Virus record (IMG/VR): IMGVR_UViG_2917881069_000005
DNA length: 34,239 nucleotides
Direction: 5' to 3' (one strand)
Source of the DNA: a virus
Lineage: Duplodnaviria; Heunggongvirae; Uroviricota; Caudoviricetes
The notes under the pieces were generated by a model. The model had not been told where the DNA came from. It saw only the letters and a program-made list of their open reading frames with translations, and searched no databases. Shown piece by piece: positions 1 to 34,239 of this stretch; the first letter of the stretch is position 1, and each line of letters begins with the position of its first letter. The position numbers were made by a program, and so were the translations under genes.

Positions 1-474
1 ATGTACAGCCCGGTACAAATAGCCAATAAATTCATAACGTTGGGAAACCAACATCATAATCCTCTGACCCACATGCAACTGCAGAAGCTTACTTATATTG
101 CCCATGGTTACTATTTAGCATTAACAGGTAAGCCTTTGCTCAACGAATGTGTCTCTGCGTGGAAGTACGGTCCGGTTATTCCCGGAATGTACGATGCTTT
201 CAAAGATTATGGGAATAAGCCTGTTACGAATGTAGCAGTAGCTCCTTTTGGTGGCATTGTTACTATGGATCCGCAAGCAGAGAGCATTATAGGGGCTGTT
301 TATAAATTTTACGGCTCGAAAAATGGAATTGAGTTATCAACTCTAACTCATATGCCAGGTACGCCTTGGTCACAAACTTATAATGGTATTGGCTCGTCAA
401 TCATCCCAGATGATGCGATCAAGACTTATTATCATGATTTATTGAATAACCGACAGCAATGTCAGGGCCTCTGA
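1..474 (+). CDS. Panacea-domain (DUF4065, SocA/GepA-like) protein; putative antitoxin or abortive-infection component
   Basis: 157-aa ORF starting at window base 1; signatures recalled for Panacea/DUF4065 (LTHMQLQKLTYIAHGYYLA, AWKYGPVIP, LSTLTHMPGTPW); may be 5'-truncated by the window edge. Confidence 0.6.
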   Translation: MYSPVQIANKFITLGNQHHNPLTHMQLQKLTYIAHGYYLALTGKPLLNECVSAWKYGPVIPGMYDAFKDYGNKPVTNVAVAPFGGIVTMDPQAESIIGAVYKFYGSKNGIELSTLTHMPGTPWSQTYNGIGSSIIPDDAIKTYYHDLLNNRQQCQGL

Positions 475-496
475 AAAAGTAATATTCAGGGATGAC

Positions 497-1045
497 ATGT
501 CTCGCAATTCAGATATCTATAAACTTATCGGAGCGGCTGCAGGTGTTGAAAATGGTCGCTCTGAAGCATCCTTAAACTATACTGACAGTCAAGAACAGGT
601 TTTTAAATCTGCATTTGAGCCGTCTAATCATGAGAGCGATGATGATTCTTCTTCAGAAAATAAAGCTATTCTGGAGGAAGAAGAGTTTGGTTCTAATACA
701 GGTGCATTGCATGAGTTTATGCAGCAGCACAGAATGGACAGTCTTCAAGCTCAGCTTGATATGCTCAAATCACAAGTACGCGATAAGATAGCTGACGCAA
801 CTGGTAAAGAAATAGACAATGAACTTCGGACAAAAATGGCATCATTCACGGTTTGTTTTATGTCGTGGTGGTGCTTATTTGTAGCCGTAATGTTTGTATC
901 GTTTCTTATTGCTCATGAAGGAAAGCCTCCAGTTGAAGCAATCGTTGCATTACTAGGTACAAGTACAATTAGCATTGTTGGTTTGGTTGGTTTCGTTGTT
1001 AGTGGATTGTTCAAATCAAGAAAAGATGGCGATAAAGAAAAATAA
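497..1045 (+). CDS. small membrane protein: acidic Asp/Ser/Glu-rich and coiled-coil N-terminal part, two C-terminal hydrophobic helices; putative toxin/effector partner
   Basis: 182-aa ORF 22 bp downstream of the Panacea ORF on the same strand; hydrophobic segments FTVCFMSWWCLFVAVMFVSFLIA and AIVALLGTSTISIVGLVGFVVSGLF; no family recognised. Confidence 0.5.
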   Translation: MSRNSDIYKLIGAAAGVENGRSEASLNYTDSQEQVFKSAFEPSNHESDDDSSSENKAILEEEEFGSNTGALHEFMQQHRMDSLQAQLDMLKSQVRDKIADATGKEIDNELRTKMASFTVCFMSWWCLFVAVMFVSFLIAHEGKPPVEAIVALLGTSTISIVGLVGFVVSGLFKSRKDGDKEK

Positions 1046-9673: not shown

Positions 9674-10162
9674 ATGAGTCTTTTGAATGAAGTTCAGAAA
9701 TTCATTGAAGCCCATCCGGGGTGTACTTCCGGAGACATTGCGGATGCTTTTACAGGTTACTCACGGCAGCGCGTTCTGCAGTCAGCAAGCAAGTTACGTC
9801 AGAGTGGGCGTGTGGCTCACCGTTGTGAAGGGGATACACGCAGACATTTCCCGCGCCTGACTGAGAGAGCGCAGGAGCCGGAACCACAACCAGTTCGTGA
9901 AACCAGACCTGTGCGCAATTTCTATGTCGGCACTAACGATCCACGGGTGATTTTGTGCCTGACCCGCCAGGCTGAAGAACTGGAGTCAAGGGGCTTATAC
10001 CGTCGTGCTGCAACCGTGTGGATGGCGGCATTCCGTGAAAGCCACTCCCAGCCAGAACGAAACAATTTTCTGGCGCGTCGTGAGCGGTGCTTACGGAAAA
10101 GCAGCAAGCGCGCTGCATCGGGTGAAGAGTGGTATCTGTCAGGGAATTACGTGGGGGCTTAA
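9674..10162 (+). CDS. PerC-like putative transcriptional regulator
   Basis: C-terminal LESRGLYRRAATVWMAA resembles PerC-family motif; ATG 9674 preceded by AGGGGG. Confidence 0.4.
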   Translation: MSLLNEVQKFIEAHPGCTSGDIADAFTGYSRQRVLQSASKLRQSGRVAHRCEGDTRRHFPRLTERAQEPEPQPVRETRPVRNFYVGTNDPRVILCLTRQAEELESRGLYRRAATVWMAAFRESHSQPERNNFLARRERCLRKSSKRAASGEEWYLSGNYVGA

Positions 10163-10815
10163 TGAGTAATAAATATTGCCAGGCGCTGGTGGAACTGCGG
10201 AACAAACCAGTCCATGAACTGAAGGAAGTGGGCGATCAGTGGCGCACGCCGGACAACATTTTCTGGGGAATTAACACCCTGTTTGGCCCGTTTGTTCTGG
10301 ATCTGTTCACTGACGGTGATAACGCCAAATGTGCTGCGTATTACACGGCGGAAGACAACGCGCTGGCGCATGACTGGTCAGAACGTCTTGCGGAGCTTAA
10401 AGGTGCTGCCTTTGGTAATCCCCCATACAGCCGCGCCAGTCAGCATGAGGGGCAATACATCACCGGCATGCGTTACATCATGAAACATGCCAGTGCCATG
10501 CGTGATAAGGGCGGGCGCTATGTTTTCCTGATCAAAGCTGCCACCAGCGAAGTGTGGTGGCCGGAAGATGCGGACCATATTGCTTTTATTCGCGGGCGTA
10601 TTGGTTTTGAACTGCCTGCCTGGTTTATCCCGAAGGACGAGAAGCAGGTGCCGACAGGAGCGTTCTTCGCTGGTGCTATTGCTGTTTTCGACAAGACCTG
10701 GAAGGGACCGGCAATCAGCTACATCGGGCGCGATGAACTTGAGGCATGTGGTGAGGCGTTTCTGGCGCAGGTTCGCCAGCAGGCGGAAAAACTGGTCAGG
10801 GAGATGGCGGCATGA
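10162..10815 (+). CDS. phage-type DNA N6-adenine methyltransferase (Dam-like)
   Basis: NPPY motif (GNPPYSR); start at MSNKYCQ with TAATG overlap; ORF track 10129..10815. Confidence 0.75.
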   Translation: MSNKYCQALVELRNKPVHELKEVGDQWRTPDNIFWGINTLFGPFVLDLFTDGDNAKCAAYYTAEDNALAHDWSERLAELKGAAFGNPPYSRASQHEGQYITGMRYIMKHASAMRDKGGRYVFLIKAATSEVWWPEDADHIAFIRGRIGFELPAWFIPKDEKQVPTGAFFAGAIAVFDKTWKGPAISYIGRDELEACGEAFLAQVRQQAEKLVREMAA

Positions 10816-11138
10816 CGACGTTAACTCAATGCCAGCAGCAGGTGCTGGATATGCTGATTTCTTATCAGAAAGAACGTGGCTTCCCGCCAACCAATCAGGA
10901 GGTGGCAACCATGCTGGGATACCGTTCGGTGAATGCAGCGGTGGAGCATCTTCGCGCACTGGAGAAAAAAGGCGTCATCACGATAAAGCGTGGTGTGGCC
11001 CGGGGGATAACGCTTCATACCGCGGTGAAGGACGACGACAGCGAGGTGGTCGGGATTATCCGCTCACTGCTTGCCGGTGAGGAAAACGCCAGGCTGCGTG
11101 CAGCCCGCTGGTTACATGAGAGGGGCCTGAAAGTATGA
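10812..11138 (+). CDS. LexA N-terminal DNA-binding-domain-like protein lacking the S24 peptidase domain
   Basis: LTQCQQQVLDMLISYQKERGFPPTNQEVATMLGYRSVNAAVEHLRALEKKGVI closely resembles LexA winged-HTH; only 108 aa. Confidence 0.6.
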   Translation: MTTLTQCQQQVLDMLISYQKERGFPPTNQEVATMLGYRSVNAAVEHLRALEKKGVITIKRGVARGITLHTAVKDDDSEVVGIIRSLLAGEENARLRAARWLHERGLKV

Positions 11139-11524
11139 AGCTGATTCTGCCTTTTCCGCCCAGCGTGAACACGTACTGGCGACACCCCAACAAAGGGGCG
11201 TTTGCTGGTAAGAGCCTGATAAGCGCGGCGGGGCGAAAATTCCAGAGCGCGGCGTGCGCTGCAATAGTTGAGCAGTTACGTCGTCTGCCGAAACCAACGT
11301 CGGCACCTGCTTCAGTGGAGATCGTGTTGTTTCCTCCGGATAACCGGATCCGCGATCTGGACAACTATAACAAGGCGCTGTTTGACGCCCTGACCCACGC
11401 GGGTGTGTGGGAAGACGACAGCCAGGTGAAAAGAATGCTGGTGGAGTGGGGACCAGTTATCCCGGAAGGGAAGGTCGAGATCACTATCAGTAAGTACGAG
11501 AAAACGGCGGGTGCAGCCGCCTGA
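11135..11524 (+). CDS. rusA: Holliday junction resolvase RusA
   Basis: 129 aa; RusA signature including DLDNYNKALFDALT. Confidence 0.8.
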   Translation: MKLILPFPPSVNTYWRHPNKGAFAGKSLISAAGRKFQSAACAAIVEQLRRLPKPTSAPASVEIVLFPPDNRIRDLDNYNKALFDALTHAGVWEDDSQVKRMLVEWGPVIPEGKVEITISKYEKTAGAAA

Positions 11525-11543
11525 TTAAGAGGAGAAACGAAGT

Positions 11544-12353
11544 ATGAATAATCTGATGGTCATTGATGGTATTGAAGTTCGTCGTGATGCTTATGGGCGT
11601 TACAGCCTGAACGATCTGCATCGCGCAGCAGTAGCATCTGGTGCAAATGCCAGAACCAAGGAGCCAGGAAAGTTTCTTTCCAGCCAACAAACTGTTGAGC
11701 TTGTTCATGAATTGACCAACACCCAGAATTTGGGTGTTGACCCGGTGAGTGTGATTCATGGGGGAAATGAACGGGGAACGTATGTCTGCAAGGAACTGGT
11801 GTATGCCTATGCAATGTGGATCAGTCCATCATTCCATCTGAAGGTGATCCGTACTTTCGACATGGTAACCAGCGCACCGGATAAATTATCCGGACAGGCT
11901 GCTGACAAGATGCAGGCTGGTGTGATTCTGCTGGACTTTATGCGCCGGGAATTAAACCTGTCTAACTCTTCAGTGCTTGGTGCCTGTCAGAAACTCCAGG
12001 AGGCTGTTGGCTTACCGAATCTGGCACCGCGCTATGCCATTGATGCTCCTGCTGACGCGCCTGATGGCTCAAGCCGCCCCACGCTGTCACTGAGTGCACT
12101 GCTGAAGCAGTATGGTATCCGCCTGACAGCTAATCAGGCATATCACCAGATGGCGAAGCTGGGGATCGTTGAACAACGTGAACGATACAGCCGTACCGCG
12201 ATTAACAACATCAAAAAATTCTGGTCGCTGACGGCGAAAGGCTGCATGTTCGGTAAGAACATCACCAGCCCCGCAAATCCGCGCGAGACGCAGCCGCATT
12301 TCTTCGAATCCCGATTCCCTGAGCTGTTAAAGCTGCTCGATACCGTTCATTGA
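11544..12353 (+). CDS. KilA-N domain protein (antirepressor-like)
   Basis: N-terminal YSLNDLHRAA-type KilA-N signature; 269 aa. Confidence 0.55.
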   Translation: MNNLMVIDGIEVRRDAYGRYSLNDLHRAAVASGANARTKEPGKFLSSQQTVELVHELTNTQNLGVDPVSVIHGGNERGTYVCKELVYAYAMWISPSFHLKVIRTFDMVTSAPDKLSGQAADKMQAGVILLDFMRRELNLSNSSVLGACQKLQEAVGLPNLAPRYAIDAPADAPDGSSRPTLSLSALLKQYGIRLTANQAYHQMAKLGIVEQRERYSRTAINNIKKFWSLTAKGCMFGKNITSPANPRETQPHFFESRFPELLKLLDTVH

Positions 12354-13350: not shown

Positions 13351-13371
13351 TTTTGTGGAGAAAGTTGATGC

Positions 13372-13734
13372 GTGATATTCAAATGGTTCTTGGAACGTTG
13401 GGGGGCATGGGTGGCAAATAATCACGAGGATGTCACCTGGTCGTCTATTGCTGCAGGATTTAAAGGACTAATCCCTTCAAAAGTAAAATCCCGCCCGCAA
13501 TGTTGTGACGATGACGCGATGATCATTTGTGGGTGCATGGCTCGCCTGAAAAAGAACAACAGCGATTTGCACGATTTATTAGTGGATTATTATGTAGGTG
13601 GTATGACGTTTATGGCGCTTGCCCGTAAACATGGGCGTTCTGATTGCTGGGTTGGGCGTTTATTGCAAAAGGCTGAAGGTGTAGTTGATGGCATGTTAAT
13701 GATGTTAGAAATTGAGCTAGAGATGGATCGTTAG
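13372..13734 (+). CDS. late antiterminator Q (short QuuD-type); N-terminus frame-disrupted
   Basis: [27 protein letters not shown] is Q-family-like; long frame can only start at GTG 13372, while a well-placed ATG (13368, GGAG 8 nt upstream) is in another frame and stops after 17 codons. Confidence 0.6.
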
Positions 13735-16599: not shown

Positions 16600-17598
16600 A
16601 TGAGCGCAAAAATCAAATACGGCCTGTCAGCTGCTGTTCTGGCGCTGATTGCTGCAGGCGCGTCTGCTCCTCAAATACTTGACCAGTTTCTGGATGAAAA
16701 AGAGGGTAACCACACTACGGCATACCGCGATGGTTCCGGTATATGGACCATCTGTCGTGGTGCCACAATGGTGGATGGTAAGCCCGTCATACCGGGAATG
16801 AAGCTGTCGAAGGAAAAATGCGACCAGGTTAACGCTATTGAACGTGATAAGGCGCTGGCATGGGTGGAGCGCAATATTAAAGTACCACTGACCGAACCAC
16901 AGAAAGCGGGTATAGCGTCATTTTGTCCCTATAACATTGGCCCCGGTAAGTGTTTCCCGTCGACGTTTTATAAGCGGCTGAATGCCGGTGATCGTAAGAG
17001 TGCATGCGAGGCGATTCGCTGGTGGATAAAAGATGGTGGGCGCGATTGCCGCATACGTTCAAATAACTGCTATGGACAGGTTATTCGTCGTGACCAGGAA
17101 AGCGCATTAGCCTGTTGGGGGGATAGATCAGTGAGCAGAGTCGCCGCGATTATTTATGCTCTGGTTATCTGCATCATCGTCTGCCTGTCGTGGGCGGTCA
17201 ATCATTACCGTGATAACGCCATCGCCTACAAAGAACAGCGTGATAAAAAAGTCAGTGAGCTGAAGCAGGCGACCGCCACCATTACTGACATGCAGCAACG
17301 CCAGCGTGCTGCTGATGTACTCGATGCTAAATACACGAAGGAGTTGGCTGATGCGAAAGCTGAAAATGATGCTCTTCGGCGCAAGCTTGATAATGGTGGT
17401 CGGGTGCTCGTCAAAGGAAAATGCTCTGTGCCATCCTCAGCCGAAACCTCCAGCGCCTCCGGCATGGGCAATGATGCCACCGTCGAACTCTCTCCAGTTG
17501 CTGGACGAAACGTTCTCGGTATCCGGGACGGAATCATCAGAGACCAGACAGCACTGAGAACGCTTCAGGAATATATCAGGACGCAATGCCTTCGATGA
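16600..17598 (+). CDS. SAR endolysin (T4-lysozyme-type, P21 R-like) whose frame runs without a stop into Rz
   Basis: N-terminal signal-anchor ([18 protein letters not shown]) and lysozyme core ([22 protein letters not shown]); no stop before Rz; G6 run at about 17117-17122. Confidence 0.7.
17131..17598 (+). CDS. Rz: i-spanin Rz
   Basis: [34 protein letters not shown]... nearly identical to recalled lambda Rz; GTG start preceded by GGGGGGA. Confidence 0.75.
17351..17557 (+). CDS. Rz1: o-spanin Rz1 (embedded in Rz, +1 frame)
   Basis: [19 protein letters not shown] lipobox, Pro-rich [12 protein letters not shown]; inside ORF 17306..17557. Confidence 0.7.
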
Positions 17599-17770
17599 TA
17601 GCGATTAATTTTACTCATCATCCTTCACATCTGGCTCTGTAGACAGGGTGGTGATCACTTCTGGAGTGAATCCAGATTAAACATCTCATTGCTGATGCTT
17701 GAAGTTGAGCATCTGGCGCGCGGTAAGGGGCTGCGTTGAAATAAGAGCCAGTCATTACAAATACCAGGAT

Positions 17771-17800
17771 TTAGCCTCGTATTCGCGGGGCTTTTTATTG
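17771..17800 (+). terminator. terminator-like hairpin after the lysis cassette
   Basis: AGCCTCG...CGGGGCT imperfect stem followed by TTTTTATT. Confidence 0.3.
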
Positions 17801-18414
17801 CCATTACAAAAGCCACTCCCTACAGAGTGGCTTTGATAATGGCTTATACCCTACACGGGATAACTTAACTGATATCCCTTTTAACGGATAAAGGTATTCA
17901 AGCCTGACACATCATGCGCTGTATCGTCGCCGTATTCCCGTATTAACAGAGACCGTAGCCCGACGGGGAACTCCTTCTGCGAGAGTGTGCGGGAATAATC
18001 AAAAACGATGCACACCGGGTTTTTACCGCGTTTATGGTTCGCGGGTTTGTCCCTCATGCTCGCCAGTCCTGTGCGGGGGTGGAAGAAACAGGATACTCAC
18101 ACAGATTCTTGTGGGCACGATGCTATTCCTTTCTGGATTATCCCGATGCCATTCATGCAAGGCGCTGTATCAGACGTTCGTCATGGCTGTCAGGCTGACG
18201 GGTCCTCCCGGTGGGGTGGCCTGCCACGGGGCGGGAGCGTCGCGGAAAAAGGCTAGTTTTTGCATTTTTATCGGCCACCATCATCTTTGCATCTTATTGA
18301 TTATTAATGGTTATTTGTTTTTTGTATGTCGAATTGAGTGTTTTTTGTTCGACATCGAACGCGTTTTCTTAAAGTTGTTCGCACGATGCATGTTTAAAGC
18401 TCTCCGGAGGAAAT

Positions 18415-18906
18415 ATGGATCATGAGTTGAAAAACCTGGTGCTGAATATTAATCAACTGGCGGCTTTATCTGGTCTGCACCGCCAGACTGTCGTGGCAAG
18501 ACTGAAAAACATTCGTCCCGCTGGTGGACATGACAAACTCAAGCTATACCGGTTGACCGATATTCTGACTGAATTTATGGGGTTACCACCGCCGGTTGCT
18601 GAGGGCGAAATGGATCCACATGAACGCAAAGCCTGGTATCAGTCTGAACGTGAGCGTCTTAAGTTCGAACAGGAAACGGCACAACTCATTCCGGCCAGTG
18701 ATGTCAGACGGGAGTTTGCCATCTGGGCAAAAGCGGTCGTGCAGGTGCTGGAGACATTACCGGATATTCTGGAACGTGACTGCGGCCTGCAGCCTGCCGC
18801 TGTGAGCCGTGTTCAGTCCATTATTGATGATCTGCGCGATCAGATAGCCCTGCGGGTGACCGAAGCAGGTGCGGATGATGAGGAGGAATTACAGCAGGAG
18901 GAGTAA
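18415..18906 (+). CDS. terminase small subunit (Nu1-like, N-terminal HTH)
   Basis: 163 aa; HTH-like LNINQLAALSGLHRQTVVARLKN; immediately upstream of and overlapping (TAATG) the large terminase. Confidence 0.6.
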   Translation: MDHELKNLVLNINQLAALSGLHRQTVVARLKNIRPAGGHDKLKLYRLTDILTEFMGLPPPVAEGEMDPHERKAWYQSERERLKFEQETAQLIPASDVRREFAIWAKAVVQVLETLPDILERDCGLQPAAVSRVQSIIDDLRDQIALRVTEAGADDEEELQQEE

Positions 18907-21009
18907 TGCTGAATCAGGAAACCGCAAAGGCAGCACGAACCGATTCAGGTTATATCCTTCGCGCACCGAGACGAATGCTGGTTGCTGATGCCGTTGCTCA
19001 GTATATGCGGGTGCCCATGGGGGCCGGGAACTCAGTCCCGTGGGATCCGCTGGTGGCACCGTATGTTATTGAGCCGATGAACTGCCTGGCCTCGCGTGAA
19101 TACGACGCAGTGATATTTGTTGGCCCGGCACGAACTGGCAAGACTATCGGCCTGATTGACGGCTGGGTGATTTACAACGTGATTTGCGATCCTGCGGATA
19201 TGTTGATCATTCAGATGACGGAGGAAAAAGCCCGCGAACACTCCAAAAAAACGACTTGCCAGAACGTTTCGCGTCAGCCCGGAAGTGGTCAGTCGCCTGA
19301 GTCCGAACAAAAATGACAACAACGTTTATGACAGAACATTCCTTGCTGGCAACTACCTGAAAATCGGCTGGCCGTCAGTCAATATCATGTCCTCATCAGA
19401 TTATAAATGCGTGGCGCTGACGGATTATGACCGTTTTCCGGAAGATATTGATGGCGAGGGGGATGCCTTCTCTCTTGCCTCAAAACGTACCACCACATTT
19501 ATGTCCAGTGGTATGACGCTGGTGGAGAGTTCCCCCGGCAGGGATGTGAAGGATGTGAAATGGCGACGGACTTCACCGCATGAGGCTCCACCAACCACGG
19601 GGATACTGTCGCTCTATAACCGTGGCGATCGCCGTCGCTGGTACTGGCCCTGTCCACACTGTGGTGAGTATTTTCAGCCCTGCGGCGATGTGGTTGCTGG
19701 TTTCCGTGATATTGCCGATCCCGTGCTGGCAAGTGAGGCGGCTTATATTCAGTGTCCTTCCTGTTCAGGACGGATTATGCCTGAACAAAAACGTGAGCTG
19801 AACGGACGTGGGGTCTGGTTGCGGGATGGTGAATCCATCAATGCGGATGGCAGTCGTTATGGTGATCCCCGACGCTCACGTATTGCGTCATTCTGGATGG
19901 AGGGTCCGGCAGCTGCTTACCAGACACTCTCGCAACTCGTTTACAAACTGCTTACTGCAGAACAGGAATACGAGACAACCGGAAGTGAAGAAACACTCAA
20001 GACGGTTATCAATACCGACTGGGGATTACCTTATCTTCCCCGTGCCAGCATGGAGCAACGAAAAAGTGAACTGCTTGAACAGCGGGCAGAGCCAGTTCCT
20101 TCCCGCAGTGTGCCGGATGGCGTTAATTTCCTGGTGGCGACAGTTGATGTGCAGGCGGGACGTCATCGCCGTTTTGTGGTTCAGGTAACGGGCTATGGCA
20201 GCCGTGGCGAACGCTGGATTATTGATCGTTACAACATCACGCAGTCATTGCGCGGTGACAGCGACGGGGAGAGCCAGCGAATTGATCCGGCCAGCTATCC
20301 GGAAGACTGGGATGTCCTGCTGACGGATGTTTTTCATAAAAGCTGGCCGCTGGCCTCCGATCCTTCTCAACAAATGCGACTGATGGCAATGGCGGTGGAC
20401 TCCGGCGGTGAAGACGGGGTCACTGATAATGCCTATAAATTCTGGCGTCGTTGCCGTCGTGATGGCCTTGGTAAACGTATTTACCTGTTTAAGGGCGACA
20501 GCATCCGGCGCGCAAAACTGATCACCCGTACATTCCCTGATAACACCGGACGAACGGGCCGACGGGCGCAGGCCGCAGGTGATGTGCCGCTCTGGCTTCT
20601 TCAGACGGATGCCCTGAAAGACCGGGTGAATAACGCGTTATGGCGTGACTCTCCAGGTCCCGGCTATGTGCATTTCCCTGACTGGCTGGGGAGCTGGTTT
20701 TACGACGAACTGACGTATGAAGAGCGGAGTAGTGACGGGAAATGGAGTAAGCCGGGTCGCGGTGCCAACGAAGCTTTTGACCTGATGGTGTATGCCGAGG
20801 CTCTGGTCATTCTGCATGGATACGAAAAGATCCGCTGGCCGGATGCACCGGAGTGGGCGAGCCGGGAAACCTGGCTGGAGTGTGTCCCGGACAGTACCGA
20901 ACCGTCACCCTCACCGGAACCGGTATCCACGCCTGTTAAAAAACAAAAACGGAAGAAAACAGTAACTGACGATGTTAACCCCTGGCTGACTTCCGGAGGA
21001 TGGTTATGA
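18906..21009 (+). pseudogene. A: terminase large subunit (lambda gpA family) split into two frames at an A7 run
   Basis: ORFs 18906..19316 (Walker-A-like VGPARTGKT) and 19285..21009 (WYWPCPHCGEYF, gpA-like); deleting one A in AAAAAAA at about 19245-19251 joins them into one frame reading ...HSKKRLARTFRVSPEVVSRL... Confidence 0.6.
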
Positions 21010-21218: not shown

Positions 21219-22726
21219 TGGCAATTCTTGATGATGTGATTGGCGTTTTTTCACCAGGATGGAAAGCGGCAAGGCTGCGTTCCCGTGCGGTGATCCAGGC
21301 TTATGAGGCCGTAAAAACGACGCGGACACATAAAGCCCGGCGGGAAAACCGAACTGCCGACCAGTTAAGCCAGTACGGGGCCGTGTCGTTACGTGAGCAG
21401 GCCCGTTACCTTGATAACAACCACGATCTGGTCATTGGTGTATTTGACAAGCTGGAAGAACGGGTGGTGGGGAAAAACGGGATTATTGTCGAGCCACATC
21501 CGGTATTACGCAATGGGGCCATTGCCCGTGATCTGGCAGCGGAGATACGCACCCGATGGAGTGAATGGTCTGTCAGTCCGGAAGTCACCGGGCAGTTTAC
21601 CCGTCCGATGCTGGAACGTCTGATGCTGCGTACCTGGCTGCGCGATGGTGAGGTGTTTGCCCAGATGGTTTCCGGGCGCATAAACAGCCTGACGCCTTCT
21701 GCCGGTGTTCATTTCTGGCTGGAGGCGCTCGAGCCGGACTTTATTCCCATGACCAGTGATGAGAGCAACAGGCTGAATCAGGGCGTGTTTGTTGATGACT
21801 GGGGGCGTCCCGAAAAATATCTGGTGTATAAAAGCCGTCCCGTATCCGGGCGGCAGATGGAAACCAAAGAAGTGGATGCAGAGCGAATGCTGCATCTTAA
21901 ATTTGTTCGCCGTCTGCACCAGATGCGCGGGACGTCTTTGTTGTCCGGTGTGCTGATCCGCCTCAGTGCCCTGAAAGAGTATGAAGATTCTGAGCTGACT
22001 GCAGCAAGGATCGCCGCTGCTCTGGGGATGTACATCCGCAAAGGCGACGGACAGAGCTATGAAACGGATGGTAATGACAGCAAGGAGAATGAACGCGAGC
22101 TTACCATTCAGCCAGGCATTATTTACGACGATCTGAAACCCGGCGAAGAAATCGGAATGGTGAAGTCGGATCGCCCCAATCCTAATCTTGAAACTTTTCG
22201 TAATGGTCAGTTGCGTGCCGTGGCGGCGGGTAGTCGTCTGAGTTTTTCCAGTACAGCGCGCAACTATAACGGCACTTACAGCGCCCAGCGTCAGGAGCTG
22301 GTTGAATCCACTGATGGCTACCTGATCCTGCAGGACTGGTTTATTGGTGCCGTCACCCGCCCGATGTATCGTGCCTGGCTGAAACAGGCTGTGGCATCCG
22401 GTGTTATCAGGCTACCCCGCGATCTTGATCGTTCTTCACTGTATACCGCGGTGTATTCCGGACCGGTGATGCCGTGGATTGACCCTGTTAAGGAGGCTGA
22501 GGCCTGGAAAATTCAGATTCGTGGTGGAGCGGCGACAGAATCAGACTGGGTACGTGCAGGTGGTCGTAATCCGGATGATGTTAAACGTCGGCGCAAGGCA
22601 GAAATTGATGAAAACCGCAAGCTGGATCTGGTATTTGATACCGATCCTGCCAGTGATAAAGGAGGCAGCAGTGCCGCAACGAAACGACAGGAGCCGCAGC
22701 ACACCGACGACCAGTCCGAAGAATAA
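21218..22726 (+). CDS. B: portal protein (lambda gpB family)
   Basis: 502 aa from MAILDD (TGATG overlap with W stop); portal-size, position and sequence character; ORF track 21146..22726. Confidence 0.75.
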   Translation: MAILDDVIGVFSPGWKAARLRSRAVIQAYEAVKTTRTHKARRENRTADQLSQYGAVSLREQARYLDNNHDLVIGVFDKLEERVVGKNGIIVEPHPVLRNGAIARDLAAEIRTRWSEWSVSPEVTGQFTRPMLERLMLRTWLRDGEVFAQMVSGRINSLTPSAGVHFWLEALEPDFIPMTSDESNRLNQGVFVDDWGRPEKYLVYKSRPVSGRQMETKEVDAERMLHLKFVRRLHQMRGTSLLSGVLIRLSALKEYEDSELTAARIAAALGMYIRKGDGQSYETDGNDSKENERELTIQPGIIYDDLKPGEEIGMVKSDRPNPNLETFRNGQLRAVAAGSRLSFSSTARNYNGTYSAQRQELVESTDGYLILQDWFIGAVTRPMYRAWLKQAVASGVIRLPRDLDRSSLYTAVYSGPVMPWIDPVKEAEAWKIQIRGGAATESDWVRAGGRNPDDVKRRRKAEIDENRKLDLVFDTDPASDKGGSSAATKRQEPQHTDDQSEE

Positions 22727-22739
22727 TTCCTGGTTCAGG

Positions 22740-23714
22740 ATGCAGGCTGGTCACCAGAGTGACGCGGATATTTATATTTATGACGAGATTGGTTTCTGGG
22801 GTGTTACAGCGAAGCAGTTTATCAGTGATCTGAATGCACTGGGCGATATCACCCACATTAATCTCCATATCAATTCACCGGGTGGCGATGTCTTTGAAGG
22901 CATCGCCATTTTTAATGCGCTGAAAACACATGGTGCGTCCATTACCGTTTATGTCGACGGTGTGGCGGCGTCAATGGCGTCGGTCATTGCGATGGTGGGA
23001 AACCCGGTCATTATGCCGGAAAACACCTTCATGATGATTCATAAACCATTTGGCTTTACGGGCGGTGATGCGGAGGACATGCGCACCTATGCTGACCTGC
23101 TCGATAAGGTTGAGGCGGTTCTGTTACCCGCTTATGCACAGAAAACCGGGAAAACCACCGATGAAATTGCTGCCATGCTGGCGGATGAGACCTGGATGTC
23201 CGGTGCCGAATGTCTGGCACATGGATTTGCTGATCAGGTGACGCCAGCCGTTAAGGCAATGGCATGTATTCAGTCAAAACGTACAGAGGAATTTAAAAAG
23301 ATGCCGGAATCCATTCGAAACATGATTACTCCGCCACGCAACAGTGCTCCACGCGTACAGGATGATGAACCAGCAGCCTCCCGGACGCCAGTGCAGGCAG
23401 CAGCACCCGTGGTGGATGAAAACAGTATCCGTGCGCAGGTACTGGCAGAGCAAAAAGCGCGTGTAAACGGTATTAATGATCTGTTTGCCATGTTTGGCGG
23501 GCGTTATCAGACGCTGCAGGCTCAGTGTCTTGCCGATCCTGAATGTTCGCTGGAGCAGGCCCGCGAAAAGCTGTTGAACGAGATGGGGCGCGAGTCCACG
23601 CCATCCAATAAAAATACCCCGGCTCATATTTATGCCGGTAACGGTAATTTTGTGGGGGACGGGATCCGCCAGGCGCTGATGGCGCGTGCCGGATTTGAAA
23701 AAACCGAAACGTGA
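22740..23714 (+). CDS. ClpP-like prohead protease with C-terminal scaffold-like extension
   Basis: ClpP-type signatures (HINSPGGDV, AASMASVIAM, MIHKP); start at internal MQAGHQ of ORF 22479..23714. Confidence 0.7.
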   Translation: MQAGHQSDADIYIYDEIGFWGVTAKQFISDLNALGDITHINLHINSPGGDVFEGIAIFNALKTHGASITVYVDGVAASMASVIAMVGNPVIMPENTFMMIHKPFGFTGGDAEDMRTYADLLDKVEAVLLPAYAQKTGKTTDEIAAMLADETWMSGAECLAHGFADQVTPAVKAMACIQSKRTEEFKKMPESIRNMITPPRNSAPRVQDDEPAASRTPVQAAAPVVDENSIRAQVLAEQKARVNGINDLFAMFGGRYQTLQAQCLADPECSLEQAREKLLNEMGRESTPSNKNTPAHIYAGNGNFVGDGIRQALMARAGFEKTET

Positions 23715-23730
23715 TAATGTCTACAACGGG

Positions 23731-24699
23731 ATGACCCTGCGTGAATATGCCCGTATGTCACTGACTGAACGGGGTATTGGGGTTTCCAGTTATAACCCGA
23801 TGCAGATGGTCGGTGCGGCGTTCACACACAGTACGTCTGACTTCGGTAATATTCTGCTGGATGTTGCGAACAAAGCCATTCTGCAGGGCTGGGAAGATGC
23901 TCCTGAAACCTATGAACAGTGGACGCGGAAAGGTCAGTTGTCTGATTTTAAAATTGCCCATCGTGTGGGTATGGGGGGCTTCAGTGCTCTGCGTCAGGTG
24001 CGTGAAGGGGCGGAATATAAATACGTCACCACCGGAGATAAACAGGCCACTATTGCACTGGCGACCTATGGCGAGCTGTTCAGTATCACCCGTCAGGCCA
24101 TTATCAATGATGATCTGAATATGCTGACCGATGTCCCGATGAAACTGGGCCGTGCGGCGAAATCCACTATTGCCGATCTGGTTTATGCCATTCTGACGTC
24201 TAACCCGAAAATCTCCACAGATAATGTAAGTCTGTTCGATAAAGCGAAACATGCAAACGTACTGGAGAGCGCTGCAATGGACGTGGCATCGCTGGATAAA
24301 GCCCGCCAGTTGATGCGCGTTCAGAAAGAGGGGGAGCGTCATCTGAATATTCGTCCTGCGTTCGTACTGGTACCGACGGCGATGGAGTCTGTTGCTAACC
24401 AGGTCATTCGCTCCTCAAGTGTCAAGGGGGCTGACATTAACGCCGGTATTATTAACCCGGTGAAAGATTTTGCGACCGTTATTGCAGAGCCTCGTCTTGA
24501 TGATAACAGCCAGACCACCTTCTACCTGGCTGCGTCAAAAGGCTCCGATACAATTGAAGTGGCTTATCTCAACGGTGTGGATACGCCATATATTGATCAG
24601 ATGGAGGGCTTCAGTGTGGATGGCGTGACAACGAAAGTGCGTATTGACGCCGGTGTCGCGCCAGTTGATCACCGCGGTCTGGTGAAATGTACGGCGTAA
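23731..24699 (+). CDS. major capsid protein (HK97-fold; not lambda gpE-like)
   Basis: Follows protease; about 320 aa; start ambiguous (GTG 23686 or ATG 23731). Confidence 0.65.
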   Translation: MTLREYARMSLTERGIGVSSYNPMQMVGAAFTHSTSDFGNILLDVANKAILQGWEDAPETYEQWTRKGQLSDFKIAHRVGMGGFSALRQVREGAEYKYVTTGDKQATIALATYGELFSITRQAIINDDLNMLTDVPMKLGRAAKSTIADLVYAILTSNPKISTDNVSLFDKAKHANVLESAAMDVASLDKARQLMRVQKEGERHLNIRPAFVLVPTAMESVANQVIRSSSVKGADINAGIINPVKDFATVIAEPRLDDNSQTTFYLAASKGSDTIEVAYLNGVDTPYIDQMEGFSVDGVTTKVRIDAGVAPVDHRGLVKCTA

Positions 24700-24785: not shown

Positions 24786-25108
24786 ATGGCAAAGAATTTT
24801 GTAGAAGAAGGAAAAACGGTGGCGATTGTTGCCAGTGCAGCCATCAGCAGCGGAGATCTGGTGCAGGTGGGTGATGTTTTGCGGTGGCGCTGACCGATAT
24901 TCCACAGGGTGAAACAGGCGACGGCATGACCGAAGGTGTGTTTATGCTGCCTAAGCTGAAAACGGATGACATGAAAACGGGTAAGAAGGTTTATCTGAAG
25001 TCCGGAAAAGTTCAGCTGACTAACAGCGGCTCTGATCCGCTGGTCGGGGTTGTCTGGGCAGATGCCGGAACCAGTGCAGAAGAAGTGCCGGTAAAACTCA
25101 ATGTCTGA
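24786..25108 (+). pseudogene. small head protein (DUF2190-like), frame-disrupted
   Basis: ATG 24786 with GGAGA RBS opens a 35-codon frame (MAKNFVEEGKTVAIVASAAISSGDLVQVGDVLRWR*) abutting out-of-frame ORF 24884..25108; one added G near 24882 would give a continuous about 107-aa product. Confidence 0.45.
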
Positions 25109-27190: not shown

Positions 27191-27577
27191 ATGTTTCTGA
27201 AACAGGGCACGTTTAATTATGAAAAACAGTCCGTGGTGCTCAGTGAGCTGTCCGGGCTGCAGAGAATTGAATATCTGGCGTTTGTTCAGCAGCGAACGGC
27301 AAAGTTTGATGCCGGTGAGGGAGAACTGCCGGAGGCTGAACGACAGATTGCTTTTCTGCGGATGGGGATGGATATCAATGCCTGGCTGGTTTCCCGCTCA
27401 CTGTGGAATGCGGATCAGTCTAAGGATGTAGAGACGCTTTGCGCATCCGTTATTACAACATGGTCGTATGATGCCCTGGGTGCGGGGGCGGAGATGGTTC
27501 TGTCGCTGAGCGGTATGGGGGCCATTGATAATGCCGGGGATGATGAGCATGAGGCGCTGACGCCGGAAAAGTCCTGA
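27191..27577 (+). CDS. G: tail assembly chaperone G
   Basis: MFLK...LSELSGLQRIEYLA resembles lambda gpG; GGTGGAG RBS. Confidence 0.8.
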   Translation: MFLKQGTFNYEKQSVVLSELSGLQRIEYLAFVQQRTAKFDAGEGELPEAERQIAFLRMGMDINAWLVSRSLWNADQSKDVETLCASVITTWSYDALGAGAEMVLSLSGMGAIDNAGDDEHEALTPEKS

Positions 27578-27915
27578 CGCGGGAAATGCAGTTTGTCATG
27601 CGGCTTGCCCGGGAGTTCCGGCGGGCAGACTGGCGGCGGATGCTGTCGGAAATGTCGGCCACTGAGCTTGGTGAGTGGGGCGATTATTTCCGGATGCAGA
27701 GCTTCAGTGATGTGTGGATGGATGCGCAGTTTGCCTCGCTGAAGGCATTGATCGTGAGAATGGTGTCCGGCAGCAGTGATGCTGCGGTGGCTGATTTCAG
27801 CCTTTTACCGGAAGAGAACGGGATACCGGAGCGAACGGACGAAGAACTGATGCATCTTGGGGAAGGTATTTCCGGAGGTGTGCGTTATGGACCAGATAGC
27901 CAACCTGGTCATTGA
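27191..27915 (+). CDS. T: G-T fusion product via -1 programmed frameshift near the end of G
   Basis: T frame (ORF 27586..27915) is -1 relative to G and open from about 27553; overlap contains CCGGAAAAGTCC just before the G stop. Confidence 0.6.
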
Positions 27916-33333: not shown

Positions 33334-34239
33334 ATGGGTAAAGGCAGCAGTAAGGGGCATACCCCGCGCGAAGCGAAGGATAACCTGAAATCCACGCAGT
33401 TACTGAGTGTGATCGATGCCATCAGCGAAGGGCCGATTGAAGGTCCGGTGGATGGATTAAAAAGCGTGCTGCTGAACAGTACACCGGTGCTGGACAGTGA
33501 GGGGAATACCAACATCTCCGGTGTCACGGTGGTGTTCCGGGCAGGTGAGCAGGAGCAGACACCGCCGGAGGGTTTTGAATCCTCCGGTTCCGAGACGGTG
33601 CTGGGTACGGAAGTGAAATACGACACGCCGATCACCCGGACCATCACGTCTGCAAACATCGACCGTCTGCGCTTTACCTTCGGTGTGCAGGCACTGGTGG
33701 AAACCACCTCAAAGGGTGACCGGAATCCGTCGGAAGTCCGCCTGCTGGTTCAGATACAACGTAACGGTGGCTGGGTGACAGAAAAAGACATCACCATTAA
33801 GGGCAAAACCACGTCGCAGTATCTGGCCTCGGTGGTGGTGGATAACCTGCCGCCGCGACCGTTCAATATCCGGATGCGCAGGATGACACCGGACAGCACA
33901 ACAGACCAGCTGCAGAACAAAACGCTCTGGTCGTCATACACCGAAATCATCGATGTGAAACAGTGCTACCCGAACACGGCACTGGTCGGCGTGCAGGTGG
34001 ATTCGGAGCAGTTCGGCAGCCAGCAGGTGAGCCGTAATTATCATCTTCGCGGGCGCATTCTGCAGGTGCCGTCGAACTATAACCCGCAGACGCGGCAATA
34101 CAGCGGTATCTGGGACGGGACGTTTAAACCGGCATACAGCAACAACATGGCCTGGTGTCTGTGGGATATGCTGACCCATCCGCGCTACGGCATGGGGAAG
34201 CGTCTCGGTGCGGCGGATGTGGACAATGGGCGCTGTATG
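33334..34239 (+). CDS. J: tail tip / host specificity protein J (5' part; continues beyond window)
   Basis: Hand-translated open frame to window end: MGKGSSKGHTPREAKDNLKSTQLLSVIDAISEGPIEGPVDGLK... near-identical to recalled lambda gpJ N-terminus; absent from ORF track because no stop in window. Confidence 0.85.
   Translation, partial: MGKGSSKGHTPREAKDNLKSTQLLSVIDAISEGPIEGPVDGLKSVLLNSTPVLDSEGNTNISGVTVVFRAGEQEQTPPEGFESSGSETVLGTEVKYDTPITRTITSANIDRLRFTFGVQALVETTSKGDRNPSEVRLLVQIQRNGGWVTEKDITIKGKTTSQYLASVVVDNLPPRPFNIRMRRMTPDSTTDQLQNKTLWSSYTEIIDVKQCYPNTALVGVQVDSEQFGSQQVSRNYHLRGRILQVPSNYNPQTRQYSGIWDGTFKPAYSNNMAWCLWDMLTHPRYGMGKRLGAADVDNGRCM

What the first reader, a model, noticed from the sequence alone, without database searches (positions are those of the whole stretch)
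19216..19320. Terminase large subunit interrupted by a +1 frameshift at an A7 tract
The gpA-like coding sequence is split between ORF 18906..19316 and ORF 19285..21009. Removing one A from AAAAAAA (about 19245-19251) gives a single about 700-aa frame reading ...EHSKKRLARTFRVSPEVVSRL.... As written the phage cannot make full-length terminase unless slippage occurs at the A7 run, so it is either a defective prophage or a sequencing indel.
Basis: seen in the sequence. Interest (0 to 1): 0.55.

Follow-up and report, generated by a model that had tools for sequence, protein, structure and literature searches.

The report
Sequencing-error frameshift in phage terminase gene
The extra A that splits this prophage's DNA-packaging (terminase) gene is almost certainly a base-calling error of the Ion Torrent draft genome the window comes from, one of many such single-base errors there, so it is an ordinary artefact and not a biological frameshift.

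Summary
An A7 run at 19245-19251 splits a lambda-gpA-type large terminase into ORFs 18906..19316 (136 aa) and 19285..21009 (574 aa). Deleting one A gives an intact 700-aa protein.

The break is very unlikely to be biological. The window is the last 34,239 nt of contig PDIG01000039.1 of Escherichia cryptic clade II strain E2661, an Ion Torrent draft at about 40x. The window holds seven private single-base indels. Six break essential phage genes: Q, endolysin, TerL, protease-capsid, DUF2190 and J. Those genes otherwise translate at 97-100% identity to intact homologues.

The 8 kb of host DNA just upstream carries three more such indels, breaking ubiA once and the essential gene plsB twice. A sibling assembly from the same project breaks plsB at a different place. 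Two assemblies (L156/L157) carry a TerL identical to the window's at every other base, but with A6. All 124 contigs found by an unbiased scan have A6, as do 12 isolated phages and all but one of 1,360 matching complete E. coli genomes.

A7, A5 and A4 variants recur mainly in other indel-rich assemblies. There is no evidence for programmed recoding. Verdict: a homopolymer miscall, of low interest.

The parts
19245..19251 (+). A7 homopolymer with one A too many. The true state is inferred to be A6, encoding Lys114-Lys115.
   Evidence: Every close intact homologue has A6. L156 and L157 are identical to the window across TerL except for this base.
18906..21009 (+). Large terminase gene (lambda gpA type, 700 aa once repaired), written as a frameshifted pseudogene.
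   Evidence: repair; Pfam GpA_ATPase and GpA_nuclease, both full length; RefSeq homologues annotated as phage terminase large subunit, 2103 bp.
18906..19316 (+). N-terminal fragment ORF of 136 aa. It holds Walker A and ends in 21 out-of-frame residues.
19285..21009 (+). C-terminal fragment ORF of 574 aa (GTG start). It holds the rest of the ATPase domain and the nuclease domain.
13392..13392 (+). Private +1 insertion (G to GG) that breaks antiterminator Q at codon 9. Same class of artefact.
   Evidence: Absent from all 1,426 matching complete E. coli genomes.
17117..17122 (+). Private +1 insertion (G6 where relatives have G5) that fuses the endolysin in frame to Rz (ORF 16600..17598, 332 aa). 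Same class of artefact.
   Evidence: The fusion protein is not in the 15-billion-protein collection.
17605..17605 (+). Private +1 insertion (T to TT) just after Rz, in a small hypothetical ORF or spacer.
23707..23709 (+). Private +1 insertion (AAA where relatives have AA) that splits the ClpP-protease/major-capsid fusion gene (22671..24696).
24876..24880 (+). Private -1 deletion (T4 where relatives have T5) that splits the DUF2190/Phage_cement_2 head gene (24786..25108).
34224..34225 (+). Private -1 deletion (AA where relatives have AAA) in tail-tip gene J, 15 nt from the end of the contig.

Best explanation
The A7 run is a homopolymer-length miscall (A6 read as A7) in an Ion Torrent draft assembly. 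The real prophage in Escherichia clade II strain E2661 most likely encodes an uninterrupted 700-aa gpA-type large terminase. Shown: the platform, the excess of private single-base indels across the contig (including in an essential host gene), and the existence of otherwise identical A6 alleles. Inferred: that this particular base is one of those errors, since no reads were examined.
For: (1) Source. The window is 100% identical to GCA_004745185.1 contig PDIG01000039.1, positions 49,384-83,622. PDIG00000000 is strain E2661, sequenced with Ion Torrent single-end 35-400 bp reads at about 40x and assembled with MIRA/SPAdes (PMC6639607). Ion Torrent data are documented to give frequent single-base indels, in and outside homopolymers, with accuracy falling as run length rises (PMC3623719, PMC3446914).
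(2) Host control. In the 8,041 nt of chromosome upstream of the window, ubiA is split in two and plsB in three by single-base indels. These are absent from five E. coli references and from the sibling assembly, and the pieces stay 97-100% identical in protein. plsB is essential in E. coli (established knowledge), so these cannot be real. The sibling Ion Torrent assembly (PDIF, strain E2748) breaks plsB at a different site.
(3) An independent assembly of read set SRR6148326 matches the source with 0 mismatches in 4,782 nt. It differs by one single-base indel in dgkA, and its contig ends exactly at one of the plsB indel sites.
(4) Rates. The window has 7 private single-base indels (1 per 4.9 kb) and the host flank has 3 (1 per 2.7 kb). 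Control prophages have none: PEC301 over 21.8 kb, E2348/69, L010 and L012.
(5) The nearest prophage, L154, is 99.83% identical over 19.1 kb. It has all genes intact, and the only gaps are the window's six indels. L156 and L157 TerL are identical to the window's at all other bases but carry A6.
(6) Private SNPs in the late genes are 9 synonymous to 1 nonsynonymous. That indicates purifying selection until essentially the present, which does not fit four independent real frameshifts in the same region.
(7) A6 is found in 124 of 124 contigs from an unbiased A5-A9 pattern scan of IMG/VR and GTDB species representatives. Exact A7 gives 0 hits in IMG/VR and 0 in JGI metagenomes, and exact A5 gives 0 in IMG/VR. 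All 12 closely related records of isolated phages (98.5-99.4% identity) have A6. The only same-length match among 1,360 matching complete E. coli genomes is strain A24.
(8) Other A7, A5 and A4 carriers mostly have further private homopolymer indels or wholly shredded prophage genes: A24, the NCTC E. fergusonii assembly, L006, L011, L014, L162, L164, L168 and L170.
Against: No raw reads were examined, so the base itself is unverified. Phage genes are dispensable to the host, so viability does not exclude a real frameshift here as it does for plsB. Bragg et al. report that under-calls (deletions) dominate in longer homopolymers, whereas this is an over-call of a 6-run, although the window's G5-to-G6 change at 17117 goes the same way. 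At least one other A7 carrier (L008) and two A5 carriers (L013, L016) show no other private indel, so genuine length variants at this run may exist in nature.
Confidence: 0.9

Rival explanations
1. It is a genuine, very recent single-A insertion by replication slippage at the A6 run. It inactivates TerL by separating Walker A from the rest of the ATPase and from the nuclease domain, leaving a packaging-defective prophage.
For: Homopolymer runs are natural indel hotspots (established knowledge). A7 and A5 alleles occur on several SNP backgrounds, and a few carriers have no other private indel (L008, L013, L016). Real TerL knockouts do exist in this phage group: L010 and L012 carry a GAA-to-TAA nonsense codon at codon 111 and no private indels.
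Against: The same contig carries demonstrably false indels in plsB and ubiA at an equal or higher density. The platform is Ion Torrent. Six other private indels hit essential phage genes that show no other sign of decay. Late-gene private SNPs are 9 synonymous to 1 nonsynonymous. An otherwise identical A6 allele exists. In complete E. coli genomes the allele frequency is at most 1 in 1,360, and that one case also looks like an error.
Confidence: 0.08
2. It is a functional recoding or switching site. Full-length TerL would be made from the A7 allele by +1 ribosomal frameshifting or by RNA-polymerase slippage that drops one A. Alternatively, the run could be a phase-variable switch that controls prophage productivity.
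For: An A-run decoded by tRNA-Lys is intrinsically slippery (established knowledge; review PMC5009743, listed). A low level of leaky read-through from an A7 allele cannot be excluded.
Against: The shifted arrangement is not conserved. A6 and a single ORF are found in 124 of 124 unbiased contigs, in all 12 closely related isolated phages, and in all but one of the 1,360 matching complete E. coli genomes. Exact A7 gives 0 hits in IMG/VR and 0 in JGI metagenomes. E. coli RNAP needs at least 7 T, and more than that for A, to bypass an indel (PMC6260861). Selection against slippery runs appears at about 9 nt (PMC1088944). No stop or rare codon follows the run: the zero-frame codons are AAA AAA ACG. 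The nearest SD-like GGAGG lies about 21 nt upstream and is equally present in A6 alleles. Length variants go both ways (A4, A5, A7) and appear mainly in error-rich assemblies.
Confidence: 0.02

Closest known systems
Ion Torrent / 454 homopolymer and single-base indel miscalls that create false frameshifts in draft bacterial genomes (Bragg et al. 2013, PMC3623719; Yeo et al. 2012, PMC3446914)
   Same: A single-base length change at a run. Many such changes across the same contig in mixed contexts. Genes are otherwise perfectly conserved. Essential host genes are 'broken'. Two assemblies of what is probably the same strain's reads differ only by an indel, with no substitutions.
   Different: Nothing substantive. 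The direction here (over-call of a 6-run) is the less common one for long runs.
Genuine terminase pseudogenes of defective lambdoid prophages
   Same: As written, the gene is split inside the ATPase domain and would be non-functional. PGAP labels the analogous A24 gene 'frameshifted', and the source record calls no protein for this gene.
   Different: True decay normally comes with nonsense substitutions, deletions or IS insertions, and with relaxed dN/dS. Here gene content is complete, there are no nonsense codons, and late-gene private SNPs are 9 synonymous to 1 nonsynonymous. L010 and L012 (GAA to TAA) show what a probable real knockout looks like.
Programmed frameshifting or transcriptional slippage that restores a split gene (dnaX; IS elements; Shigella mxiE; Citrobacter tssM, PMC4256274)
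   Same: Two overlapping ORFs joined at a homopolymeric A run.
   Different: Those sites are conserved in the split state, typically have runs of 9 or more or a defined slippery heptamer with a stimulator, and sit in verified sequence. Here the split state is essentially unique to error-prone assemblies and the run is only 7.

Membership tests
Lambda gpA-type large terminase (TerL) | N-terminal packaging ATPase domain with Walker A | tested here: met
   Pfam GpA_ATPase, E = 8.5e-72, profile 2-247 of 247 on the repaired protein. GPARTGKT at residues 73-80.
Lambda gpA-type large terminase (TerL) | C-terminal gpA endonuclease domain | tested here: met
   Pfam GpA_nuclease, E = 1.1e-85, profile 1-294 of 294.
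Lambda gpA-type large terminase (TerL) | Synteny: small terminase upstream; W-like gene, portal and protease-capsid genes downstream | tested here: met
   DUF1441 (annotated as small terminase subunit in the phage records) at 18415..18906, a 70-aa gene, Phage_portal_2 and ClpP-MCP follow in the same order as in E2348/69, PEC301 and phage mEp460.
Lambda gpA-type large terminase (TerL) | A single uninterrupted ORF of about 700 aa | tested here: not met
   It is split at the A7 run in the window as written. It is met in all close relatives.
Programmed ribosomal frameshift / transcriptional slippage site | The split-ORF arrangement and slippery run are conserved among homologues | tested here: not met
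   124 of 124 unbiased contigs have A6. Exact A7 gives 0 hits in IMG/VR and 0 in JGI metagenomes, and exact A5 gives 0 in IMG/VR. All 12 closely related isolated phages have A6.
Programmed ribosomal frameshift / transcriptional slippage site | Run length or motif sufficient for efficient slippage (about 9 A/T for RNAP; a slow or stop codon plus a stimulator for +1 PRF) | tested here: not met
   The run is A7 followed by ACG, with no adjacent stimulator. Thresholds are from PMC6260861 and PMC1088944.
Programmed ribosomal frameshift / transcriptional slippage site | Full-length product demonstrably made from the shifted template | not testable with these tools
   This needs a reporter assay or mass spectrometry.
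Phase-variable contingency locus | Both ON and OFF run lengths are common in high-accuracy genomes of the same lineage | tested here: not met
   Only 1 of the 1,360 matching complete E. coli genomes matched without a length difference (A24), and it has a second indel in the same gene.
Sequencing/assembly indel artefact | An indel-prone platform with no polishing by an orthogonal technology | tested here: met
   Ion Torrent single-end reads at about 40x, MIRA/SPAdes, with no second platform mentioned.
Sequencing/assembly indel artefact | The same kind of indel breaks essential, conserved host genes in the same contig | tested here: met
   plsB has two frameshifts and ubiA one within 8 kb. The sibling assembly breaks plsB elsewhere.
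Sequencing/assembly indel artefact | The indels are private, and the flanking sequence is identical to intact alleles | tested here: met
Sequencing/assembly indel artefact | The read pile-up shows length heterogeneity or strand bias at the site | not testable with these tools
One indirect hint: the Logan contig of SRR6148326 breaks exactly at a plsB indel site and differs from the deposited contig only by one indel.

The most novel reading that the evidence does not exclude
The A7 allele is real in strain E2661, and possibly in a few other lineages such as L008. The Lys-Lys A-run of this widespread terminase would then be a natural mutational hotspot that reversibly switches prophage packaging competence off and on, with low-level rescue by slippage.
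Probability: 0.03. Interest if true: 0.25.

Novelty: not a real feature. Interest (0 to 1): 0.04.

Why it matters
There is little biological significance. The practical value is as a caution. This draft assembly, and its sibling from the same project, carry roughly one false single-base indel every 3-5 kb. Any apparent pseudogene, gene fusion (such as the endolysin-Rz 'fusion' at 16600..17598) or 'defective prophage' call in them is unreliable without polishing. Truncated terminase fragments from such assemblies are already deposited as proteins in public databases; one example is the 136-aa STN20783.1 from an NCTC E. fergusonii assembly. The prophage itself appears to be a complete lambdoid phage of the mEp460/Ayreon terminase type and is probably functional.

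Tried and rejected
(1) A 61-nt megablast query across the run returned nothing, probably because low-complexity masking left no 28-nt word. It was replaced by a 126-nt query.
(2) I tested whether the SNP T74 (Leu25) is linked to A7, which would have shown identity by descent and therefore a real allele. It is not linked. T74 also occurs in A6 genes, and both A7 and A5 occur on G74 and T74 backgrounds.
(3) My first indel census was confounded by strand-dependent gap placement. I redid it after orienting all loci the same way.
(4) I looked for host flank inside the window as an internal control, but the window lies entirely within the prophage. The host flank was obtained later from the source contig.
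(5) I tried to retrieve an independent assembly of the same reads across TerL, using strain-specific proteins (HTH protein, tape measure, DUF2190 fragment). Only a left-end contig of SRR6148326 was found, so the A-run itself could not be checked independently.
(6) The GTDB representative scan did not contain the source.
(7) A sequence search of the PDB with the repaired TerL found nothing. It is not needed for the verdict.
(8) Programmed frameshifting, transcriptional slippage and phase variation were considered and rejected for lack of conservation and insufficient run length.

Full report
**Observation.** An A7 run lies at 19245-19251 (CTCC-AAAAAAA-CGAC). ORF 18906..19316 (136 aa) is followed by ORF 19285..21009 (574 aa) in the +1 frame. 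Removing one A gives a 700-aa ORF that reads ...EHSKKRLARTFRVSPEVVSRL.... The repaired protein is a complete lambda-gpA-type large terminase. It matches Pfam GpA_ATPase over profile positions 2-247 of 247 and GpA_nuclease over 1-294 of 294. The break comes after residue 115, between the Walker A motif (GPARTGKT, residues 73-80) and the rest of the ATPase domain. As written, neither fragment could act as a terminase.

**Comparison with relatives.** The E2348/69 homologue (WP_000934130.1, 2103 bp, intact) differs from the window's gene by four SNPs plus this one extra A. Twelve records of closely related isolated phages (98.5-99.4% identity; mEp460, Ayreon, phi458, PhiR47_1 and others) all span 2103 bp, which means A6. 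A 126-nt query across the run hit 1,360 complete E. coli genomes. None matched at 100%. The only match without a length difference was strain A24, whose gene carries a second single-base insertion and is annotated 'frameshifted' by PGAP. Exact A7 gave 0 hits in IMG/VR and 0 in JGI metagenomes, and exact A5 gave 0 in IMG/VR. The split state is therefore not conserved, which excludes a programmed recoding site.

**Recurrence of length variants.** Exact look-ups of the two truncated products found them in a few other assemblies. A7 occurs in an NCTC E. fergusonii assembly (deposited as STN20783.1) and in several Logan read-set assemblies. A5 occurs in four others. An in-frame GAA-to-TAA nonsense codon occurs in two. 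A7 and A5 each sit on several SNP backgrounds and are not linked to the nearby T74 SNP, so these are independent events at a hotspot. Most carriers also have further private homopolymer indels nearby: A24, the NCTC assembly, L006, L011 and L014. Assemblies in which the whole prophage is shredded into dozens of small ORFs show A5 or even A4 at this run. The hotspot is thus largely a sequencing hotspot.

**The window has many such indels.** Against a prophage about 98% identical (PEC301), and then against about 140 related loci, the window shows seven private single-base indels:
- 13392, antiterminator Q, codon 9.
- 17117, G6 where relatives have G5, fusing the endolysin to Rz.
- 17605, just after Rz.
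- 19245, TerL.
- 23707, the ClpP-protease/major-capsid fusion gene.
- 24876, the DUF2190 head protein.
- 34224, gene J, 15 nt from the window's end.

Every affected gene otherwise translates at 97-100% identity to intact homologues. Gene content is complete and there are no nonsense codons. The variant alleles are absent from all related loci (0 of 47 and 0 of 36 for the capsid and DUF2190 sites). They are also absent from every matching complete E. coli genome: 1,992 for the capsid site, 1,463 for the endolysin, 1,426 for Q and 4,325 for J. Control prophages show no private single-base indels over comparable lengths. The window's private SNPs are 22 synonymous to 13 nonsynonymous overall, and 9 to 1 in the late genes. 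The structural genes were therefore under purifying selection essentially up to the present, which does not fit four independent real frameshifts in that region.

**Source and decisive control.** An exact look-up of a window protein carrying private substitutions located the source. The window is 100% identical to the last 34,239 nt of NCBI GCA_004745185.1 contig PDIG01000039.1, and the window's end is the contig's end. The 8,041 nt of host chromosome immediately upstream (ubiC-ubiA-plsB-dgkA-lexA-dinF-yjbJ-zur) is about 92.7% identical to E. coli. That stretch contains three more private single-base indels. One splits ubiA and two split plsB, and the pieces remain 97-100% identical in protein to E. 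coli. plsB is essential in E. coli (established knowledge), so these frameshifts cannot be real. The sibling assembly PDIF01 breaks plsB at a different site. A Logan assembly of read set SRR6148326 matches the source with 0 mismatches in 4,782 nt. It differs by one single-base indel in dgkA, and its contig ends exactly at one of the plsB indel sites. The indel density is 1 per 2.7 kb in the host flank and 1 per 4.9 kb in the window. The window's indels therefore need no explanation beyond the contig's background error rate.

**Platform.** The genome announcement (Shen et al. 2019, PMC6639607) identifies PDIG00000000 as Escherichia cryptic clade II strain E2661 from Hong Kong intertidal sediment. 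[quoted passage not shown] PDIF is strain E2748 from the same project. Ion Torrent data are documented to give frequent single-base insertions and deletions. Calling accuracy falls with homopolymer length, and high-frequency errors also occur outside homopolymers, commonly as A/T insertions (PMC3623719, PMC3446914). That matches the mixed contexts seen here.

**Closest relatives of the prophage.** L154 (GCA_028436695.1) is 99.83% identical to the window over 19.1 kb and has all genes intact. The only gaps between the two are the window's six indels in that span. L156 (a SPAdes assembly at about 49x) and L157 have no mismatch to the window between 18210 and 22582, so their intact 700-aa TerL genes equal the window's gene minus one A.

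**Rivals.** A genuine recent insertion cannot be excluded without reads, because phage genes are dispensable and a few other carriers (L008, L013, L016) show no other private indel. Given the demonstrated error rate in the same contig and the allele's near-absence from high-accuracy genomes, I put this at about 8%. Programmed +1 frameshifting, transcriptional slippage or phase variation lack conservation. The run is also shorter than what E. coli RNA polymerase needs for appreciable slippage: at least 7 T, and more than that for A (PMC6260861), with selection against slippery runs appearing at about 9 nt (PMC1088944). No stimulatory context is present. I put this at about 2%.

**Verdict.** The feature is an Ion Torrent homopolymer miscall, one of at least ten single-base errors in about 42 kb of this contig. 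It is not a real biological feature, and its interest is low. The definitive test is to resequence strain E2661 or inspect the read pile-up.

Noticed in passing
window 16600-17598: There is an apparent 332-aa endolysin-Rz fusion ORF. It is produced by a private G5-to-G6 insertion at 17117-17122. Relatives have separate lysozyme (177 aa) and Rz (155 aa) genes that overlap by 4 nt. It is an artefact of the same kind as the TerL break, not a novel lysis protein.
   Followed up: yes
window 13368-13734: Antiterminator Q is frameshifted at codon 9 by a private G insertion at 13392. As written, late-gene transcription would also be abolished. The insertion is absent from all 1,426 matching complete E. 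coli genomes.
   Followed up: yes
window 22671-24696 and 24786-25108: The ClpP-protease/major-capsid fusion gene is split by a private A insertion at 23707. The DUF2190 (Phage_cement_2) gene is split by a private T deletion at 24876. The 74-aa DUF2190 fragment recurs in 71 blocks of the protein collection, mostly in assemblies whose whole prophage is shredded into small ORFs.
   Followed up: yes
window 34224 (15 nt from the window and contig end): There is a private 1-nt deletion in tail-tip gene J. The window ends exactly at the end of contig PDIG01000039.1, inside J.
   Followed up: yes
L149 (source contig upstream of the window); host-flank positions 650, 2855, 3259: Host genes ubiA (one frameshift) and plsB (two frameshifts; an essential gene) are broken by single-base indels in the source assembly. 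Sibling assembly PDIF01 (L148) breaks plsB at a different site. The NCBI records call no protein for these genes.
   Followed up: yes
L010 and L012 (Logan ERR1609503, SRR27214126), about locus position 1246: Two read-set assemblies carry a GAA-to-TAA nonsense codon at TerL codon 111, with an A6 run and no private indels. This looks like a genuine terminase knockout in a related prophage, in contrast to the window's artefact.
   Followed up: partly
L005 (GCA_900450565.1, E. fergusonii NCTC assembly), locus 10001-12105: TerL there is split into three pieces (136, 99 and 410 aa) by A7 plus a C5-to-C6 insertion. The 136-aa fragment is deposited as protein STN20783.1, 'DNA packaging protein of prophage (terminase large subunit)'. 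It is an example of probable error-derived fragments entering protein databases.
   Followed up: partly
window 1-1045: A SocA_Panacea-domain protein (1..474) is followed by a 182-aa protein with C-terminal hydrophobic segments (497..1045). They sit at the left edge of the prophage, next to host zur, and could be a Panacea-type antitoxin/toxin pair. This is common: the Panacea protein occurs in 536 blocks of the collection.
   Followed up: no
window 27191-27912 (about 27565-27571): The tail assembly chaperone genes G (27191..27574) and T (27586..27912) are present, with GGAAAAG near the end of G. This is where lambda-like phages have their conserved -1 programmed frameshift that makes G-T. The motif is not the canonical G GGA AAG, and I did not examine it.
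   Followed up: no
window 17600-18415: The roughly 800-nt stretch between Rz and the small terminase gene has no convincing ORF. It is the most variable segment relative to close relatives, with clustered mismatches against L154, L156 and L157. It presumably holds the cos/packaging region. Not analysed.
   Followed up: no
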